A stretch of DNA of 64,000 nucleotides from an uncultured delta proteobacterium (GCA_963783425.1 CAWANO010000010.1:613472-677471), one strand, 5' to 3'; counted from the first letter of the stretch, positions 17,516-27,215 are shown. The notes: generated from the letters alone by a model not told the origin. Numbers and translations are program-made.

Positions 17516-20500
17516 TTAAAAGAGCTGTTGCTGGCGGTAACGTCGCTTTTTACGGGGAGCGCGGGCCGTTTCACGGGCCATGAGGCGCGCCTCGACCAGA
17601 TCCAAAAAAGGTGACCGGCGGCAGGTGACGCGCTGACCGAAACGGTGCCGCTGCTGGGCCCAACTCAAATAGAGCTCACTTTGAGCTCGGGTCATGGCGA
17701 CGTAAAACAGGCGCGCCTCCTCTGCCAGGTCCCGGTCCGACAACACCTCCCCCTGAGACCGATACGGTATCAGCCCATCCTCGCAACCGGCCACGATCAC
17801 CACTGCAAACTCCAGGCCCTTGGCGGCGTGCATGCTCATCAGGGTCACCTGTTGGGCGATTTCGCTATAGCGGTCGCTATCTTGGTAGAGACTGATGCGG
17901 GTGATAAAATCCCCCCAGGTCCGATCTTTTGCCAGATCAAAGATCAGCTCCCATTGGCGGGCCAGTTGCCGATCGGCCGCCAACCATTCGACGCGGCCCG
18001 TTTTCTTCAAAATCCAGCGCAGTTGAGTCTCGGACGAGCCGTCTGGAATACCGCTCTTAATATGGTCCAGCCATTGCGCCAGCCGCACCACAGCCGCCTG
18101 CTGGTTGCGGCTCATGCCGGAAATGGGCAGATGCCGAACCTCGTCCAACGCGCGCCATACGGGGATTTCACGCATGAGCCCCCATCGTTTCAGTCGCTTT
18201 ATTGCCAAATTTGAAGGCGGCCCTTCCATCAGCGCCACCGCCGACGCCAAGTCGCTGTAAACACCAGCGCCGTTGACCAACTTGGCCGCGGCCAAAAGAT
18301 CACCGATACCCGCTTGTTGAAACAGCGCCTCGCGTGCCGCCACGCAGAAGGGAATGCCGGCATCGCCCAGCGCTTGAGAGAGCAATTGAGACTGGAAGTG
18401 AGTCCGGAACAGCACGGCGAAGTCGCCATAGCTGTGTTGCGCGGTGGCGTTTTGGGTGATCCAACCCGTGTCGATATCGTGAAACCCGCGACCGCCAACG
18501 CGCTCTTCGATCAGGCGGGCGATGGCACGGGCTTCCTCGTGATCGGTTTTGGTTGCGAGGGTGCCGATCGTCGCGCGACCCTTGATTTCGGATAAAAGGG
18601 GCACCGCATGGGTGGCGAATCCCGCCAAATCGCTATCGGGTAGGCCGTGATGTATGCCAACACCATTTAACATCTGGCGGGCGGCCTTTAAAATGGCAGG
18701 CGTGCTGCGGTAATTGCGTTGCAATGCGACCACGGCCGCCGCCGGGTAATCACGCTTGAATCTCAGGAAAAAGCGCTGATCAGAACCGCGGAATCCATAA
18801 ATGGCCTGGTCCGGGTCGCCGATCACGCACAGTCCGCGCCCGTCGGCAGGTATCAGAGACCTGAGCAGACGATATTGACCTTCATTAAGATCCTGGTATT
18901 CATCGACGAATACGTATTTGAAACGTTGCTCCAGCCAGCGGCGGTAGCGGCTGTCATCTTCCAGCCGGCACACCACGCGCATGATCAAGTCTTCGAAATC
19001 CTGCACGCCTTGGAACTGCATGAGGCCGGTGTAGGACTCGTAGATATGGTTGGCGGTCGCCAGGTCGATGCCATCAATTCCGGCTAGGTCATCCGCCCGT
19101 ACCCGCTCTTCGATACGCTGCTTGGCACGCATGATGGCCCGGTCGGCCGCCTCGGTCCACAGGGCCAGTGGCTGACCGTCAGAGGCAACCATGTCGACGG
19201 CATCTCTGATCATCGCCTTGCGGTTTTCGGTGTCAAGCAACACCCGCTCGGAGCCCTCGCTCTCCGCCCGCAACAGTTGGTTGCAAAGCCCGTGGAAAGT
19301 GGCGATCACGGGCTGTTTGGACTTCTTTTCGGTCATGGCAGCCACGCGCTGCCGCATCTCACCGGCGGCCTTGTTGGTAAAGGTGAGTGCCAGGATTTGA
19401 TCGGGCTCGACGCCCGTGTCGTTGATCAAACGGACCATTCGGGTGGTGATGGTGTGGGTTTTTCCGGTTCCAGGACCAGCGATTACGATCAGGGCGCTGT
19501 CGTCGTGTTCGACCACGGCTTTCTGATATGGGTTCAAACGCGGCGCTTTATGGGGTGGGTCCACTACAGGTTGCGGCGCGGGTTCGGAAGTGACGCGCGG
19601 CGCTGGTGCATTATAAAGACCGCCTCGTGTTATTTTTTCCGCCTTGCTGGCGGTGTTTGGGTCCGGAGGCAGGGAGAGAAAAAGGCGTCGCTGTCCGGTC
19701 AATTCTTGGCGTTCAGCCGCTTCAAAAAGATGCACCGTTCCAAAACGCCCGTCGAATCCGGCATCAATGTGCACGGCGCCCGTCCGCATGCGCCGCACCG
19801 CTTCGGCCAAGAGCGGAATGCCCGCCCGGGCGATTTGACCCTCGCTCAACCTGGAAAGAATCGAAAACTCGTCACCTAGGCGGCTAATGGCCTGTTGATA
19901 GGCCCGGCCGACGGTTTTGGTGTTAACACCCACCCCGTAAATCTCGGCCAGTATCTCCATCAGGGGAACGATGCTCAGGTAGGGGTGGCGGGCGCCTTTT
20001 CGCGCTGATGAGTGTTGATCAGCCAAGGCTTCCACCCGGTTTAAAACACCCAGGGTAAGGGGTTTTTCACAGTGCGGGCAGATACCGCCGAGCCCCCTGG
20101 TCTGGCCAGGTGTCAGACACACCCCGCATTTACTATGGCCGTCGAGATGGTATTTGCCTTCCTGAGGGAAAAACTCGAAGGTGCCTTCGAACGATTTCAT
20201 ATCTCCACTTTTTAGGGCGTTGTAAATACCGTCAAAGGAGAGTTCGGTGTCGAAGCGGTTGGCCTCACGGCCGAGTTTGAGCGGGGAGTGGGCGTCCGAG
20301 TTGGAGACGAGTGTGTAACGATCCAGATTGGAAACCCGCCAGTTCATGGCTGGATCCGAAGAGAGCCCCGTTTCAAGTGCAAATATGTGGGGAGTCAGCT
20401 CTTCGAAGCAGGCCTCGACCGTGTCGAATCCCGATTTGGACCCCAACAGCGAAAACCACGGCGTCCAGACGTGGGCGGGGATAAACATACACCGCTCGTC

Positions 20501-20962
20501 CACCTCGAGCACCATCTCAAGCAGGTCACGGGCATCGAGGCCCAGAATCGGGCGCCCGTCGGAATGGATGTTACCGACGCGCTCGAGTCGCTGGTTGAGG
20601 CGCAGGGCGTCGTTCAGCTCGGCGAGCAGTATCAGGTTGTGATTTTTTCGGGTCCGTCCCGCCTTTTTATAGATGTTGCTGATTTCAGCCGTGAGCACAA
20701 AGCGCACCTGACCCGGGCAACTGGCGGGTATTTGTAACTCGCAGGCGGCTGCGCTTTTTCCGTTCAGACGGTAGAGGCCGGGCTCGGCTGGGACCAGTTT
20801 TTGTCGAATTTCATGGCACCAAACCGGGTGGGTAAAATCCCCCGTGCCAACCACGGTGATGCCTTTTATGCGCGCGGCGACGTAGAGGTTTTCCAAGTCG
20901 AGATTTTTAGCCGTTGCGATCGAATATTTGGAGTGTATGTGAAGATCGGCGATGAATTTCAT
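17516..20962 (-). CDS. EndoQ-like PHP-domain nuclease fused to a UvrD/PcrA-type superfamily-1 helicase
   Basis: The N-terminus reads 'FIADLHIHSKYS...VVGTGDFTHPVW', followed by the Zn-ribbon 'CGVCLTPGQTRGLGGICPHCEKPL' (EndoQ-like). From about residue 490 the helicase motifs appear: 'NPYQKAVV', 'VIAGPGTGKTHTI', 'VDEYQD', 'NYRS' and 'MSMHAAKGLEF'. Confidence 0.75.
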   Translation of the reverse strand: MKFIADLHIHSKYSIATAKNLDLENLYVAARIKGITVVGTGDFTHPVWCHEIRQKLVPAEPGLYRLNGKSAAACELQIPASCPGQVRFVLTAEISNIYKKAGRTRKNHNLILLAELNDALRLNQRLERVGNIHSDGRPILGLDARDLLEMVLEVDERCMFIPAHVWTPWFSLLGSKSGFDTVEACFEELTPHIFALETGLSSDPAMNWRVSNLDRYTLVSNSDAHSPLKLGREANRFDTELSFDGIYNALKSGDMKSFEGTFEFFPQEGKYHLDGHSKCGVCLTPGQTRGLGGICPHCEKPLTLGVLNRVEALADQHSSARKGARHPYLSIVPLMEILAEIYGVGVNTKTVGRAYQQAISRLGDEFSILSRLSEGQIARAGIPLLAEAVRRMRTGAVHIDAGFDGRFGTVHLFEAAERQELTGQRRLFLSLPPDPNTASKAEKITRGGLYNAPAPRVTSEPAPQPVVDPPHKAPRLNPYQKAVVEHDDSALIVIAGPGTGKTHTITTRMVRLINDTGVEPDQILALTFTNKAAGEMRQRVAAMTEKKSKQPVIATFHGLCNQLLRAESEGSERVLLDTENRKAMIRDAVDMVASDGQPLALWTEAADRAIMRAKQRIEERVRADDLAGIDGIDLATANHIYESYTGLMQFQGVQDFEDLIMRVVCRLEDDSRYRRWLEQRFKYVFVDEYQDLNEGQYRLLRSLIPADGRGLCVIGDPDQAIYGFRGSDQRFFLRFKRDYPAAAVVALQRNYRSTPAILKAARQMLNGVGIHHGLPDSDLAGFATHAVPLLSEIKGRATIGTLATKTDHEEARAIARLIEERVGGRGFHDIDTGWITQNATAQHSYGDFAVLFRTHFQSQLLSQALGDAGIPFCVAAREALFQQAGIGDLLAAAKLVNGAGVYSDLASAVALMEGPPSNLAIKRLKRWGLMREIPVWRALDEVRHLPISGMSRNQQAAVVRLAQWLDHIKSGIPDGSSETQLRWILKKTGRVEWLAADRQLARQWELIFDLAKDRTWGDFITRISLYQDSDRYSEIAQQVTLMSMHAAKGLEFAVVIVAGCEDGLIPYRSQGEVLSDRDLAEEARLFYVAMTRAQSELYLSWAQQRHRFGQRVTCRRSPFLDLVEARLMARETARAPRKKRRYRQQQLF

Positions 20963-21328
20963 GTGCTATTTTTCGGTCAAAAATCAGCGCCCCAACACCC
21001 CTTAAAGTGATTGATTTCGGCAAGCTTTGAAAAGGCCGCGAAGCGGGGATTGAAATCTGAGGTAAACAACTGATTTATATTCTTAATAGTGCTTGTTTCC
21101 ATGGAATAAATATGCTATATATATGGCGTTTTTAATATTAACCCCACAATATATTGGATAAACAGTCAAATTTTGTTCAGCTATTGAACACTGCTGGCCG
21201 ACAGGGTTGAAATACGTTCCAATCGAAGCTCAATCAAAACCTTGAAATGAGGCTGTTTCGAACAACGTTCGGCCAAAACCGCTCTCATTTTTCAATAACC
21301 ACTTACCGGTATAAAATTATAAAATCGC

Positions 21329-21943
21329 ATGGGTTTTTTATCAACCACAAGTTCGATAACGCGCTACTTCGTCAAGGGCGACCTGGAAAACCCTATTACC
21401 GAAACGGTGACCAAAGCCCTAAAGGCCAACACCATTCAGGAGATCGACCGCAATACCGCCCAGACCAGCACCGGCTGGACATCGTTTACAACCCCCTATG
21501 CGCCGGATTTCAATGGCAATCGTTTCGTTTTTGGATCCCTTTTTATCTTTTCTCTACGGATCGATAAAAAATCGATTTCGGCCAAGGTACTCAACAAACA
21601 CATTTCTCAAGAGATGGCCCAACAAACCACCGCCACCGGGGGCGGCTTTATTTCCACGTCGCGCAAAGAGGCCATCAAGGATAAGGTTACCGATCAACTG
21701 AGTTTGCGCACCCCGGCATCGCCCAATATTTTTGATCTGGTTTGGGATTATGAAGCCCACAGTGTATGGCTCATGACCACCCAAAAAGCCGCCAACGAAG
21801 CGCTGGAATCTTTGTTCTTCAAATCTTTCAAGGTGCCCTTGATCCGACTTTTCCCCTACACCTTGGTGGAACTGCTGGGTCACTTGGATGACGCCCAAAA
21901 GGATCGATTTGCCAATTTGGCGCCCACGAAGTTCAACTCTTAA
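21329..21943 (+). CDS. RdgC-like (recombination-associated) protein, short form
   Basis: By eye it is colinear with about the N-terminal two-thirds of E. coli RdgC. Shared landmarks are 'TGW', 'RIDKKSISAKVL', 'RKEAIKDKVTDQL' and 'VWLMTTQKAANEALESLF'. Confidence 0.5.
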   Translation: MGFLSTTSSITRYFVKGDLENPITETVTKALKANTIQEIDRNTAQTSTGWTSFTTPYAPDFNGNRFVFGSLFIFSLRIDKKSISAKVLNKHISQEMAQQTTATGGGFISTSRKEAIKDKVTDQLSLRTPASPNIFDLVWDYEAHSVWLMTTQKAANEALESLFFKSFKVPLIRLFPYTLVELLGHLDDAQKDRFANLAPTKFNS

Positions 21944-21974: not shown

Positions 21975-22523
21975 ATGCTCGATGTGAGCGTGGCCTATAA
22001 CCGATACCGCTTTGTCGGTAATGAGTTTCTCACCTGGCTGTGGTTTGTGGTGGCCACCAACAGCTACATCACCTTTTTGGACAGCGGTGCAGATGATGGA
22101 TCATCCCAACTCACGCCGACCATAGGTCTGGGTGATCGCATCGTACTCAAAAATCGCCACGATCAGGGTGAAGAGACCATCACCATTACCGGCAGCGGCG
22201 CAGACTGGGAAGAGGGTGCGGTGGCACTTAAAAAGGGAGCCCAAGTCAACGAACTGGCGTTGGTCTTCGAGCAAGATCAGCACACCTGGAAAGCCACCCT
22301 GAAAGGGGAGAGTCTGCATTTGACCAGCCTCAAAACCCCCCAAGGCGGTAAAATTTACGCACCCGAAGAAACCGATGCGGCCGTGCTCGAAAAATTTTAT
22401 TTGTACGATCAGATTGTACAGTGGATCAATCAACTCTTTGACGCCTTTGTAGACCTGAGAATTTCAGACCAGTGGGAGAGCGGGCAATTGCCGGAGGTGC
22501 GACGATGGATCCATGCCTCCTAA
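21975..22523 (+). CDS. hypothetical protein, possibly related to the RdgC C-terminal region
   Basis: It is a separate ORF 31 nt after the previous gene. 'GNEFLTWLW' and the later pattern loosely parallel the C-terminal third of RdgC. The similarity is weak. Confidence 0.35.
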   Translation: MLDVSVAYNRYRFVGNEFLTWLWFVVATNSYITFLDSGADDGSSQLTPTIGLGDRIVLKNRHDQGEETITITGSGADWEEGAVALKKGAQVNELALVFEQDQHTWKATLKGESLHLTSLKTPQGGKIYAPEETDAAVLEKFYLYDQIVQWINQLFDAFVDLRISDQWESGQLPEVRRWIHAS

Positions 22524-22804: not shown

Positions 22805-23923
22805 ATGCAAATCACCATCAATCGGGATGACATTATTCAGGTTTTGGCCAATGTGCAGGGCTTAACCAACCGCAAAAGCAATCTGGCCATTACGGCCAAT
22901 GTGTTGATTCGGACCGACAGTGAAGGGGTCCGCATAACGGCCACCGATCTTGAGACCGGATTCGAAGGTTACTATCCCGCCGTGGTGGGTCGTGAAGGCG
23001 CCGTTACCATCAATGCCCGAAAACTGTTCGAGATCGTGCGCGATTTTCCTATTCAGGAGATCAAACTGGAGGAGATCAAAAACGGTTGGATTGAAATCGG
23101 CAGCGGCAAGGTGATGTATCACATTGTAAGCCTTAATCCGGATGAATTTCCTGACTCGCCCGAGATCGATGATGTCCGCTCTTTCGATATGGAAAGCGGC
23201 CATTTCAAAAAGATGATCGACAAAACCGTTGGGATTGTGGGTGAAAGTGACGACAAGCGCGCTCACATCATCGGTAACTGCCTGGAGAAGGTCAAAGAGG
23301 GCGGAAAAAATATCGTGCGCATGGTGGCCACTGATGGCGGGCGGTTGTCGAAAATGGATTGTGTATATGGTGACGGCGTCGATCTACCTCTGGACAACCC
23401 CGTGCTTATTCCCAAAAAAGGGCTGATGGAGGTTTCAAAATTTCTCAGGCGTGACGGCATCGTAAATCTCGGCCTCAAAGACAATAAATTTGTCGTCAAA
23501 CAGGAGCGCGAAACCTTGATCGTGCGACTGCTGGAAGGCGTCTTTCCCGATTATGCCAAAGTGGTTTGGAGAGATATTCAGAGCGATATCCTGGTGCCCA
23601 AGCAACCCCTTTTCATGATGGTCAAACGCATGTCGATCCTGGCCACAGAGACCTATCGCGCCGTAAAATTCCGGTTTGAAGATGACTGCCTGCATATCGA
23701 CTCAACCAACCCTGACATCGGCGACTCCAAGGAACACATGGAGATTGAATTTAAGCGTAAACCGTTGGAGATGGCCTTTAATCCACGGTTTTTTATCGAC
23801 GCGCTTAATGTCATCGATGAAGAAAATGTGATTTTGAACATCTCCAATGAATCCAGGCCTTGTCTGATCGAGGCCGAAAATGACAAATCCTATCTGGGCG
23901 CTATCATGCCCATGCACGTTTAA
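22805..23923 (+). CDS. dnaN: DNA polymerase III subunit beta (sliding clamp)
   Basis: It is 372 aa with the typical clamp pattern: 'LAITANVLI', 'ATDLE', 'MVATDGGRLS' and 'PDY..V'. It ends '...YLGAIMPMHV'. Confidence 0.95.
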   Translation: MQITINRDDIIQVLANVQGLTNRKSNLAITANVLIRTDSEGVRITATDLETGFEGYYPAVVGREGAVTINARKLFEIVRDFPIQEIKLEEIKNGWIEIGSGKVMYHIVSLNPDEFPDSPEIDDVRSFDMESGHFKKMIDKTVGIVGESDDKRAHIIGNCLEKVKEGGKNIVRMVATDGGRLSKMDCVYGDGVDLPLDNPVLIPKKGLMEVSKFLRRDGIVNLGLKDNKFVVKQERETLIVRLLEGVFPDYAKVVWRDIQSDILVPKQPLFMMVKRMSILATETYRAVKFRFEDDCLHIDSTNPDIGDSKEHMEIEFKRKPLEMAFNPRFFIDALNVIDEENVILNISNESRPCLIEAENDKSYLGAIMPMHV

Positions 23924-23940: not shown

Positions 23941-26383
<2,443 letters not shown>

Positions 26384-26531: not shown

Positions 26532-27215
26532 ATGAACATCATTGAACCCCAGGTCGACATCCTGTTTGCGCCCGACGGCGACGCGATTCTAAAACACCTC
26601 GAACTGGCGGCCCGCACCTGCTATAAATCTGAAGAAAAGATCACCAAGGATTCCGCCACCGGCCTGATCCGGGCGCTGATCCGATCTGGGCACCACAGTG
26701 TTATCGAGCACAGCAGCCTGTCGGTGCGGATCACCTGCGACCGCGGCATCTCGCATGAGATTGTGCGGCACAGACTCTGTTCTTTCAGCCAGGAAAGCAC
26801 CCGTTACGCCAATTACGCCAAGCAGAAGTTCGGGCGCGAGATCACCGTTATTCGGCCCTTCTTCTGGCGGGAGCAGGATCCGAAATACCTTCTTTGGTTC
26901 AAGGCCATGCGTGCTGCGGAAGAGGCGTATCTGGCATTGATCGACGCCGGTGCCACGGCCCAGGAGGCACGCAGTGTTCTACCCAACAGCCTAAAAACCG
27001 AAATCGTGGTGACGGCCAATCTACGCGAATGGCGGCACATATTCGCCTTGCGTTGCGCCAAAGCCTCCCACCCCCAGATTCGACAGGTCATGTTGCCGCT
27101 GCTGGACACGTTCAATCAGAAAATTCCCGTGATCTATGACGATCTTGCTAAAAAATTCCGCGAAGATATCCAACGATTCGGTCAAAAAGCAGCCATTCAC
27201 ATCACCATCAGCTAA
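26532..27215 (+). CDS. thyX: FAD-dependent thymidylate synthase
   Basis: It has 'SGHHSVIEH' and the ThyX motif 'RHRLCSFSQESTRY'. Confidence 0.9.
   Translation: MNIIEPQVDILFAPDGDAILKHLELAARTCYKSEEKITKDSATGLIRALIRSGHHSVIEHSSLSVRITCDRGISHEIVRHRLCSFSQESTRYANYAKQKFGREITVIRPFFWREQDPKYLLWFKAMRAAEEAYLALIDAGATAQEARSVLPNSLKTEIVVTANLREWRHIFALRCAKASHPQIRQVMLPLLDTFNQKIPVIYDDLAKKFREDIQRFGQKAAIHITIS

What the first reader, a model, noticed from the sequence alone, without database searches (positions are those of the whole stretch)
17516..20962. EndoQ-like PHP nuclease fused to a UvrD-type helicase in one 1148-aa protein
Residues 1 to about 330 look like endonuclease Q. They include the PHP metal-binding 'DLHIHSKYS', 'VGTGDFTHP' and a CxxC...CxxC zinc ribbon. 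EndoQ cuts 5' of deaminated or abasic bases.

Residues from about 490 to 1148 carry all SF1A helicase motifs. A covalent damage-specific nuclease plus 3'-5' helicase would be a self-contained incision and unwinding repair enzyme.

The gene sits next to an RdgC-like pair and dnaN-gyrB, which suggests a replication-associated role. I know of no biochemical characterisation of such a fusion.
Basis: partly seen in the sequence, partly recalled or inferred. Interest (0 to 1): 0.55.

Follow-up and report, generated by a model that had tools for sequence, protein, structure and literature searches.

The report
EndoQ nuclease fused to UvrD-like helicase
This is a real, intact bacterial gene joining a damaged-base-specific DNA nicking enzyme (endonuclease Q) to a UvrD-type unwinding motor with sliding-clamp docking tails; the family is widespread and already listed in the literature, but nobody appears to have tested it biochemically.

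Summary
Window 17516-20962 holds one uninterrupted 1148-aa ORF, on the minus strand.

- **EndoQ module.** Residues 5-415 match Pyrococcus furiosus EndoQ over all three domains (E 5e-46; model TM 0.84). Every catalytic, zinc and lesion-pocket residue is conserved.
- **Helicase module.** Residues 475-1130 are a complete UvrD/PcrA-like SF1A helicase with all motifs (TM 0.80-0.84 to UvrD-DNA complexes).
- **Not an artefact.** 57 of 80 species-representative genomes from at least 13 phyla carry the same fusion. Eight carry the two halves as adjacent genes.
- **Clamp motifs.** The protein ends in QQQLF, a beta-clamp-binding motif (QLxLF in relatives). A second motif, GQRRLF, sits at the EndoQ/helicase junction.

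Most likely function: a clamp-tethered enzyme that nicks 5' of dU, dI or AP sites and then peels off the damaged strand.

The dnaN-gyrB/RdgC-like neighbourhood is specific to Desulfobacterales. Shiraishi et al. 2016 already listed long bacterial EndoQ homologues with this C-terminal motif, so the gene is a new member of a catalogued but uncharacterised kind. Interest is moderate.

The parts
17516..20962 (-). Whole gene: 1148-aa EndoQ-UvrD-like helicase fusion, including the stop codon
   Evidence: Single uninterrupted ORF. Full-length homologues at 98-100% coverage.
19718..20962 (-). EndoQ module, residues 1-415. It comprises the PHP catalytic domain, the Zn-binding domain and the C-terminal helical domain.
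   Evidence: PfuEndoQ 5zb8 E 4.9e-46 over 5-415. Foldseek TM 0.84-0.85, rmsd 3.0 A. Catalytic residues H8, H10, E93, H108, H164, D223 and H225 are invariant in 126 sequences.
20069..20149 (-). Zinc-ligand segment, residues 272-298, holding H276, C279, C282, C295 and C298
   Evidence: Aligns to the Pfu C4 site C249/C252/C268/C271. C279, C295 and C298 are invariant. C282 is Cys in only 35 of 126 sequences, while H276 is conserved in 124 of 126.
19679..19696 (-). Internal GQRRLF, residues 423-428: a putative second beta-clamp-binding motif at the end of the EndoQ module
   Evidence: Q in 102, L in 101 and F in 104 of 126 sequences, with variable flanks. It coincides with the C-terminus of stand-alone and split EndoQs, which end in QxxLF. 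Present in 30 of 57 fused genome copies against 1.6% in shuffles.
19544..19678 (-). Disordered interdomain linker, residues 429-473
   Evidence: Not conserved; length 11-99 aa (median 46) across the family. AlphaFold pLDDT is below 50 for residues 425-473.
17573..19540 (-). UvrD/PcrA-like SF1A helicase module, residues 475-1130. Walker A K501 lies in 19457-19480 and DEYQD 687-691 in 18890-18904.
   Evidence: PF00580 E 2.6e-65 and PF13361 E 6.7e-42. All SF1 motifs are invariant or nearly so. Foldseek TM 0.80-0.84 to UvrD-DNA complexes over about 650 residues.
17519..17566 (-). Basic disordered tail ending in QQQLF (residues 1144-1148, nt 17519-17533): the C-terminal beta-clamp-binding motif
   Evidence: 119 of 120 homologues have Q[LMI]x[LIMF]F in the last 12 aa, and 113 end exactly with it. 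50 of 53 complete fused genome copies have it against 2.4% in shuffles. pLDDT is below 50 for 1133-1148. The same motif is listed for long bacterial EndoQs in PMC4858679 Fig. S1.
22805..23923 (+). Context: dnaN, encoding the beta sliding clamp, the predicted docking partner. The RdgC-like gene, the 182-aa gene, dnaN and gyrB together lie divergent to the fusion gene.
   Evidence: Three DNA_pol3_beta Pfam domains. The adjacency is conserved only in Desulfobacterales-type loci.

Best explanation
The gene encodes a clamp-tethered 'nick-and-unwind' repair enzyme.

**Shown by sequence and structure comparison**
- The N-terminal 415 residues are a complete, apparently active endonuclease Q.
- The C-terminal 650 residues are a complete, apparently active UvrD/PcrA-type SF1A helicase.
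- The two are joined by a roughly 45-residue disordered linker.
- A QxxLF clamp-binding motif ends each module.

**Inferred from characterised EndoQs and UvrD-family helicases**
1. The beta clamp concentrates the enzyme on DNA, probably newly replicated DNA.
2. EndoQ flips out dU, dI or an AP site and cuts the phosphodiester bond immediately 5' of it.
3. The tethered helicase loads at that nick and translocates 3'->5' on the undamaged strand. This peels off the lesion-bearing strand as a 5' flap.
4. A polymerase extends from the new 3'-OH, a 5' nuclease removes the flap, and ligase seals the nick.

This would supply in cis the helicase step that was postulated for the archaeal EndoQ pathway.
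For: **Domain identity**
- EndoQ: E 4.9e-46 over all three domains, with model TM 0.84-0.85.
- Helicase: E 2.2e-73 to UvrD1, with TM 0.80-0.84 to DNA-bound UvrD.

**Both modules are under selection for activity**
- EndoQ residues H8, H10, E93, H108, H164, D223 and H225 are invariant in 126 diverse sequences.
- So are the lesion-pocket residues T167, E197, G199, L200 and S201.
- Helicase residues Q480, K501, D687, R752 and R1092 are invariant or nearly so (E688 in 125, R1092 in 124 of 126).
- The pocket residues match those that exclude T and A in PfuEndoQ.

**The functional linkage is independent of the fusion**
- 57 of 80 species genomes carry the fusion, and 8 carry an EndoQ gene immediately followed by a separate UvrD-like gene.
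- No other conserved neighbour appears across phyla.

**Clamp tethering**
- The C-terminal QLxLF is nearly universal.
- In six split loci the EndoQ ORF and the helicase ORF each end in the motif.
- Archaeal EndoQ binds PCNA, and is stimulated by it, through a PIP box in the same position (PMC4858679).

**Precedent**
- A helicase step after EndoQ incision was proposed by Shiraishi 2015 (PMC4357722).
Against: - No biochemical data exist for any long-form member.
- TIGR00375 and the PcrA, UvrD and Rep equivalog models all score below their trusted cut-offs. The protein is therefore a divergent subfamily of both parents, and substrate range or helicase polarity could differ.
- The window's own motif is QQQLF, with Q rather than L/M at position 2.
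- The internal motif is absent from about half of the fused proteins. It could simply be the end of a helix (helix 415-427 in the model).
- Which strand the helicase loads on is pure inference.
- I could not test whether these genomes also keep a canonical UvrD/PcrA.
Confidence: 0.6

Rival explanations
1. The helicase is not an excision motor. It acts as a translocase that drives lesion scanning, or that strips the slow-turnover EndoQ (or other proteins) off its nicked product. Strand removal is left to Pol I strand displacement.
For: PfuEndoQ is slow (kobs 0.19-0.88 per min; PMC5961232). UvrD-family enzymes are known protein-displacement motors (established knowledge). The flexible 45-residue linker fits either role.
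Against: All DNA-unwinding subdomains, including 2B, are retained, and the model superposes on DNA-bound UvrD. Nothing in the sequence distinguishes this from true unwinding.
Confidence: 0.17
2. It is an anti-phage or foreign-DNA restriction enzyme. It would nick uracil-, hypoxanthine- or otherwise modified-base DNA and then unwind or degrade it, by analogy with helicase-nuclease defence systems.
For: The helicase part hits PADLOC GajB and DRT-helicase models. An antiviral role has been suggested for Bacillus EndoQ (PMC8307549).
Against: The PADLOC hits cover only the generic UvrD fold, and no GajA or other partner is present. The gene sits among housekeeping genes (cutA, dnaN, gyrB, thyX), with synteny kept between homologues only 47% identical. 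No defence-island neighbours recur. Clamp-binding motifs point to the host replisome.
Confidence: 0.07
3. The PHP domain works as a generic 3'-5' exonuclease or phosphoesterase that trims ends for a PcrA-like helicase. The enzyme would then be an AddA/RecB-style resection enzyme rather than a lesion-specific nickase.
For: PHP domains in PolX and Pol III alpha have exonuclease or phosphoesterase activity (established knowledge). Helicase-nuclease fusions such as AddA and RecB are weaker structural hits.
Against: The match is to the whole three-domain EndoQ, not just to PHP. The damaged-base pocket and the Zn domain are conserved. No PD-(D/E)xK domain is present.
Confidence: 0.05
4. It is an artefact: two adjacent genes (endoQ and a uvrD-like gene) merged by an indel or assembly error in this window.
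For: The window does contain at least one probable indel error, because gyrB is split by a frameshift at an A6 run near 24875-24880. Split gene pairs do exist in some lineages.
Against: The closest relative (69% identity) and more than 120 others have the same continuous architecture and length. 57 independent species genomes carry the fusion. Linker position and length fit the family.
Confidence: 0.01

Closest known systems
Pyrococcus furiosus / Thermococcus kodakarensis endonuclease Q (PDB 5zb8, 7k30)
   Same: Same three-domain fold (PHP, Zn-binding, C-terminal helical). About 30% identity. Metal ligands and damaged-base pocket are identical. A clamp-docking motif follows directly after the helical domain: a PIP box in archaea, GQRRLF here.
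   Different: The archaeal enzyme is about 420 aa with no helicase, and it binds PCNA rather than the beta clamp. The window protein has a 17-aa insertion at residues 68-85. It scores below the TIGR00375 trusted cut-off.
Long bacterial EndoQ homologues listed by Shiraishi et al. 2016 (PMC4858679, Suppl. Fig. S1), e.g. Desulfobacterium autotrophicum WP_015906045 (1156 aa), Geobacter metallireducens, Sorangium cellulosum. These are probably 'family 3' of Shiraishi et al. 2017.
   Same: Same length class (945-1244 aa), an N-terminal EndoQ module and a C-terminal QLxLF. This is the group to which the window protein belongs.
   Different: The window protein is a new sequence: 69% identity to the closest protein in the protein database searched and 45-49% to the rest. 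The held papers do not describe the helicase, the internal motif or the split-gene forms, and they report no biochemistry.
Bacillus pumilus / B. subtilis EndoQ (the characterised bacterial EndoQ)
   Same: A bacterial EndoQ with dU, dI and AP nicking activity.
   Different: It is stand-alone and short, and sits in a different phylogenetic cluster according to PMC5961232. I did not compare the sequences here.
UvrD / PcrA / Rep (SF1A helicases)
   Same: All helicase motifs are present, and the 1A/1B/2A/2B architecture is kept (TM 0.80-0.84). The inferred job, unwinding from a nick made by a partner nuclease, parallels MutL-UvrD in mismatch repair, UvrC-UvrD in NER and RepD-PcrA in rolling-circle replication.
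   Different: It is not an orthologue of any of the three (357 against 911 bits for PcrA, and similar shortfalls for the others). The nickase is covalently attached. The C-terminal partner-binding tail is replaced by a basic tail plus a clamp-binding motif.
Helicase-nuclease fusions AddA/RecB and DinG-exonuclease
   Same: A nuclease and an SF1/SF2 motor combined in one polypeptide.
   Different: Those nucleases are PD-(D/E)xK or DEDD domains that act on DNA ends. Here the nuclease is a lesion-specific PHP-type nickase placed at the N-terminus.

Membership tests
Endonuclease Q (EndoQ / TIGR00375 / MJ0043 family) | Similarity to PfuEndoQ across all three domains (PHP, Zn-binding, C-terminal helical) | tested here: met
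   phmmer E 4.9e-46, query 5-415 against 5-385 of 400. Foldseek TM 0.84-0.85, rmsd 3.0 A.
Endonuclease Q (EndoQ / TIGR00375 / MJ0043 family) | Catalytic metal ligands H8, H10, E76, H84, H139, D193 (and H195) | tested here: met
   They correspond to H8, H10, E93, H108, H164, D223 and H225. All are invariant in 126 sequences.
Endonuclease Q (EndoQ / TIGR00375 / MJ0043 family) | Damaged-base pocket: T142, E167, L168, G169, L170, S171, N191 | tested here: met
   They correspond to T167, E197, T198 (Pfu L168, a main-chain contact), G199, L200, S201 and N221.
Endonuclease Q (EndoQ / TIGR00375 / MJ0043 family) | C4 zinc site | tested here: met
   C279, C282, C295 and C298 are present in the window protein. 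Across the family the second Cys is variable (35 of 126) and H276 is conserved.
Endonuclease Q (EndoQ / TIGR00375 / MJ0043 family) | NCBIfam TIGR00375 trusted cut-off | tested here: not met
   159.6 bits against a cut-off of 326.6. This marks a divergent bacterial subfamily.
Endonuclease Q (EndoQ / TIGR00375 / MJ0043 family) | Incision immediately 5' of dU, dI or AP sites | not testable with these tools
   Needs an enzyme assay.
Long bacterial EndoQ homologues (Shiraishi 2016 Fig. S1) | More than 900 aa, an N-terminal EndoQ module and a C-terminal beta-clamp motif QL[DS]LF | tested here: met
   1148 aa ending in QQQLF. 119 of 120 homologues carry the motif.
UvrD/PcrA/Rep-like SF1A helicases | Pfam UvrD-helicase and UvrD_C above gathering thresholds, with motifs Q, I, Ia, II, III, IV, V and VI | tested here: met
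   221.3 and 144.6 bits. Motifs conserved.
UvrD/PcrA/Rep-like SF1A helicases | Four-subdomain fold 1A/1B/2A/2B | tested here: met
   TM 0.80-0.84 to D. radiodurans and E. coli UvrD-DNA complexes over about 650 residues.
UvrD/PcrA/Rep-like SF1A helicases | Orthology to PcrA, UvrD or Rep (NCBIfam equivalog cut-offs) | tested here: not met
   PcrA 357 against 911, Rep 330 against 951, UvrD 285 against 965.
UvrD/PcrA/Rep-like SF1A helicases | ATP-dependent 3'->5' unwinding | not testable with these tools
   Needs an enzyme assay.
Gabija (GajA/GajB) or other defence helicase systems | GajB-type helicase encoded next to a GajA (OLD/TOPRIM) nuclease, or another system-specific partner | tested here: not met
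   PADLOC hits cover only the generic UvrD fold. Neither flanking protein tested (the 204-aa and 182-aa proteins) hits PADLOC, and the neighbours are housekeeping genes.
AddA/RecB helicase-nucleases | C-terminal PD-(D/E)xK nuclease domain | tested here: not met
   No such Pfam hit. AddA and RecB align only through the helicase core.

The most novel reading that the evidence does not exclude
The long-form EndoQ would be a two-handed beta-clamp client. One QxxLF follows the nuclease and one follows the helicase, so the two motifs could occupy both clefts of the beta dimer.

It would work as a bacterial, mismatch-repair-like, post-replicative excision system for deaminated or misincorporated bases. 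In this reading clamp orientation on nascent DNA directs the nick and the direction of unwinding. That would define the missing downstream half of 'alternative excision repair' and explain why the two modules stay linked, fused or adjacent, across more than 13 phyla.
Probability: 0.25. Interest if true: 0.7.

Novelty: new member of a known kind. Interest (0 to 1): 0.42.

Why it matters
How the nick made by EndoQ (or EndoV) is turned into completed repair is still unknown. Published models simply postulate 'a helicase'.

A family in which the lesion-specific nickase is physically fused to a UvrD-type motor points directly at that missing step. In some lineages the two are encoded side by side instead, and each module carries its own clamp-docking tail. 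This offers a single-polypeptide system for reconstituting the pathway.

The family is also far more common in bacteria than the phrase 'a few bacteria' used in the EndoQ literature suggests:
- the EndoQ-domain search found 1039 protein clusters (at 50% identity) at E <= 1e-30;
- its top 150 clusters are almost all the long form.

The long form may therefore be a common form of the enzyme.

Tried and rejected
- **Origin of replication.** I looked for oriC next to the gene because GC is low at 20-24 kb and cumulative GC skew reaches its minimum there. DnaA-box matches are no more frequent than chance (6 found, 8.3 expected) and none lies in the 20963-21328 intergenic region. Dropped.
- **SOS or operator site.** I searched the promoter region for an operator-like inverted repeat. 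Only AT-rich overlapping palindromes turned up. Dropped.
- **Defence system.** PADLOC gave only generic UvrD-fold hits.
- **Conserved partners.** I clustered all flanking ORFs of 84 loci (the 83 fetched plus the window) to find partners across phyla. Nothing recurred beyond the helicase, apart from the Desulfobacterales-specific pair/dnaN/gyrB block and a promiscuous large family not annotated here.
- **The 182-aa neighbour.** I tested whether it is a paralogue of the RdgC-like 204-aa protein. It is not detectably so (E 0.079), and it has no Pfam, NCBIfam or PDB hit.
- **Literature.** Shiraishi et al. 2017 (PMID 28095753), which defines the three EndoQ families, is not held. I therefore infer, but could not verify, that 'family 3' is the helicase fusion.
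- **Canonical UvrD/PcrA.** No whole-genome access was available, so I could not check whether these organisms keep a separate UvrD or PcrA.
Full report
**1. Observation**

Window 17516-20962 contains one ATG-initiated, uninterrupted ORF of 1148 codons. It lies on the minus strand, and the plus-strand reading is full of stops. DLHIHSKYS is at residues 6-14 and VGTGDFTHP at 38-46. The zinc ribbon reads C279-x2-C282 ... C295-x2-C298, and Walker A (GTGKT) is at 498-502.

**2. Domain identity**

*EndoQ module*
- The N-terminal 471 residues match P. furiosus endonuclease Q (PDB 5zb8) at E 4.9e-46. The match covers query 5-415 against residues 5-385 of the 400-residue crystallised construct, which takes in the PHP, Zn-binding and C-terminal helical domains.
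- NCBIfam TIGR00375 covers 5-409 at E 1.4e-46 but scores 159.6 bits, below its 326.6-bit cut-off.
- The EndoQ module therefore extends to about residue 415, not about 330.

*Helicase module*
- Residues 475-1140 are a UvrD/PcrA/Rep-type SF1A helicase.
- Pfam UvrD-helicase scores E 2.6e-65 and UvrD_C scores E 6.7e-42.
- M. tuberculosis UvrD1 scores E 2.2e-73 and PcrA E 1.4e-69.
- All three orthologue models (PcrA, Rep, UvrD) fall far below their cut-offs.

*Structure model*
- An AlphaFold2 model built on 40 sequences has mean pLDDT 79 and pTM 0.58.
- It superposes on DNA-bound UvrD at TM 0.80-0.84 over about 650 residues, and on PfuEndoQ at TM 0.84-0.85 with rmsd 3.0 A.
- The linker (425-473) and the last 16 residues are predicted to be disordered.

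**3. Are both halves functional?**

I aligned the query with 125 full-length representatives of 50%-identity clusters.

- The PfuEndoQ metal ligands and catalytic residues were shown by mutagenesis in PMC5961232. They map to H8, H10, E93, H108, H164, D223 and H225, and all are invariant.
- The damaged-base pocket maps to T167, E197, G199, L200 and S201, all invariant. N221 is conserved in 110 of 126 sequences. H164, G199 and S201 correspond to the residues reported to exclude T and A (PMC8307549).
- Helicase residues Q480, K501, D687, R752 and R1092, together with motifs III and V, are invariant or nearly so (E688 in 125, R1092 in 124 of 126).
- One detail differs from the Pfu C4 site. The second zinc cysteine (C282) is present in only 35 of 126 sequences, whereas H276 is conserved in 124 of 126.

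**4. Is the fusion real, and how widespread is it?**

- A search of the 5.8-billion-protein collection returned more than 120 homologues with 98-100% coverage and lengths of 1118-1183 aa. One is 69% identical and the rest 45-49%. Some lie on contigs of up to 6.8 Mb.
- Searching the EndoQ domain alone against 1.84 billion cluster representatives gave 1039 hits at E <= 1e-30. Almost all of the top 150 are 1000-1250 aa long.
- Of the best 80 loci, 57 encode the fusion as one ORF, 18 encode a short EndoQ of about 425-460 aa, and 5 are cut by contig ends.
- Fused forms occur in Desulfobacterota, Myxococcota, Chloroflexota, Bacteroidota (including Rhodothermaceae and Fodinibius), Planctomycetota, Acidobacteriota, Latescibacterota, KSB1, Binatia, Alphaproteobacteria, Spirochaetota, Clostridia and Verrucomicrobiota.
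- Cultured hosts include Desulfonema magnum, Sorangium sp. and Fodinibius roseus.
- In 8 of the 18 short cases helicase similarity lies immediately downstream; in seven of them a separate UvrD-like ORF was delimited (one of these a truncated 491 aa), and L077 looks like a frameshift artefact. Short forms within Desulfobacterales are nested among fused relatives, at up to 87% identity.

The assembly-join hypothesis is therefore excluded. The recurrence of both fused and adjacent-gene forms argues that the two activities work together.

**5. Clamp-binding motifs**

- The family's extreme C-terminus is QLxLF, the bacterial beta-clamp-binding consensus, preceded by a K/R-rich tail. 119 of 120 close homologues have it in the last 12 residues, and 113 end exactly with it. 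The window protein ends ...RKKRRYRQQQLF.
- In species genomes, 50 of 53 complete fused ORFs have the motif, against 2.4% in composition-matched shuffles.
- A second motif, G-Q-x-x-L-F at residues 423-428, closes the EndoQ module. Q occurs in 102, L in 101 and F in 104 of 126 sequences. A non-conserved linker of 11-99 aa follows it.
- This internal motif is present in 30 of 57 fused genome copies, against 1.6% in shuffles.
- It coincides with the C-terminus of stand-alone EndoQs, 13 of 18 of which end in QxxLF.
- In six split loci, both the EndoQ ORF and the downstream helicase ORF end in the motif.
- This mirrors archaeal EndoQ, whose C-terminal PIP box binds PCNA (KD 55 nM) and stimulates cleavage (PMC4858679).

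**6. Genomic context**

- The divergent neighbours are a 204-aa protein with a weak RdgC N-terminal-half match, an unannotatable 182-aa protein, dnaN, gyrB and thyX. cutA lies on the other side.
- The same arrangement is found with the 69%-identical homologue and with a homologue only 47% identical.
- The dnaN/gyrB adjacency occurs in only 11 loci and the RdgC-like pair in 12, counting the window, and all are Desulfobacterales-type loci. No neighbour other than the helicase recurs across phyla.
- Context is therefore weak evidence for a replication link. The clamp motifs are the stronger evidence.

**7. Mechanism**

*Shown here:* a complete EndoQ and a complete UvrD-like helicase in one chain, joined by a flexible linker, with clamp-motif tails.

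*Inferred:*
1. The beta clamp tethers the enzyme to DNA.
2. EndoQ nicks 5' of dU, dI or an AP site.
3. The helicase loads at the nick and moves 3'->5' on the intact strand, displacing the lesion-bearing strand.
4. A polymerase, a flap nuclease and ligase finish the repair.

This is analogous to MutL-UvrD, UvrC-UvrD and RepD-PcrA (established knowledge). It supplies the helicase step proposed for the archaeal pathway (PMC4357722).

Rival readings, with estimated probabilities:
- the helicase is a scanning or turnover motor (0.17);
- the protein restricts uracil- or modified-base DNA (0.07; PADLOC hits are generic only);
- the PHP domain is an end-processing nuclease (0.05);
- the fusion is an artefact (0.01).

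**8. Comparison with the literature**

- Shiraishi et al. 2015 noted Bacillus and Desulfovibrio homologues.
- Shiraishi et al. 2016 state that bacterial EndoQ homologues carry beta-clamp motifs. Their Suppl. Fig. S1 lists about 10 short and about 35 long (945-1244 aa) proteins with C-terminal QLxLF, including Desulfobacterium autotrophicum, Geobacter metallireducens, Sorangium, Caldilinea and Rhodothermus.
- Miyazono 2018 cites a 2017 division of EndoQ into three families 'based on the domain organization'. That paper is not held.
- No held paper mentions the helicase, the internal motif or the split forms, and none reports biochemistry on the long form.

**9. Verdict**

The gene is a new member of a catalogued but biochemically uncharacterised family. 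Its interest is moderate. It lies mainly in making the post-incision step of EndoQ repair testable, and in the possible two-site engagement of the clamp.

Noticed in passing
window 23941-26383 (+), break near 24860-24885: gyrB is split into two overlapping ORFs of 336 and 495 aa. A frameshift at an A6 run (GAAAGAAAAAATC, about 24875-24880) causes the split. Homologous contigs carry an intact GyrB of 798-813 aa. This is probably a sequencing or assembly indel, which shows that the window is not free of indel errors.
   Followed up: yes
window 21329-21943 (+) and 21975-22523 (+): A conserved gene pair (204 aa and about 180 aa) is transcribed divergently from the fusion gene in 12 Desulfobacterales-type loci, sometimes without dnaN. 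The first protein weakly matches only the N-terminal half of RdgC (26.6 bits). The second has no Pfam, NCBIfam, PADLOC or PDB match and is not detectably similar to the first. The pair's function, and any link to the EndoQ-helicase, are unknown.
   Followed up: partly
window 26532-27215 (+); L001 1-539: A thymidylate synthase gene follows gyrB in the two relatives examined. It is thyX in the window and in its 69%-identity relative, but the non-homologous thyA in a relative only 47% identical. The conserved dnaN-gyrB-thy position is notable because thymidylate supply controls dUTP misincorporation, which creates an EndoQ substrate. This may be coincidence.
   Followed up: no
window 20069-20149 (-), residues 272-298: In the long-form family the second cysteine of the EndoQ C4 zinc site is usually Arg (67 of 126) and is Cys in only 35 of 126. 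An upstream His (H276) is nearly invariant. This suggests an H-C-C-C zinc site in most members.
   Followed up: partly
window 20708-20761 (-), residues 68-85: A 17-residue insertion relative to PfuEndoQ contains a conserved Pro (P79, 106 of 126) and Cys (C82, 74 of 126). C185 is also nearly invariant (124 of 126). The role of these residues is unknown.
   Followed up: no
L014, L036, L037 (Desulfobacterales genomes): Short stand-alone EndoQ genes are nested among fused relatives, at up to 87% identity. In L036 and L037 they still sit next to dnaN-gyrB. This suggests secondary loss of the helicase half, or errors in the MAG assemblies.
   Followed up: partly
window 1-64000: Cumulative GC skew reaches its minimum around 16-22 kb, and GC content drops to 0.47-0.50 at 20-24 kb, next to dnaN. 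However, no cluster of DnaA boxes was found, so there is no support for an origin of replication here.
   Followed up: yes
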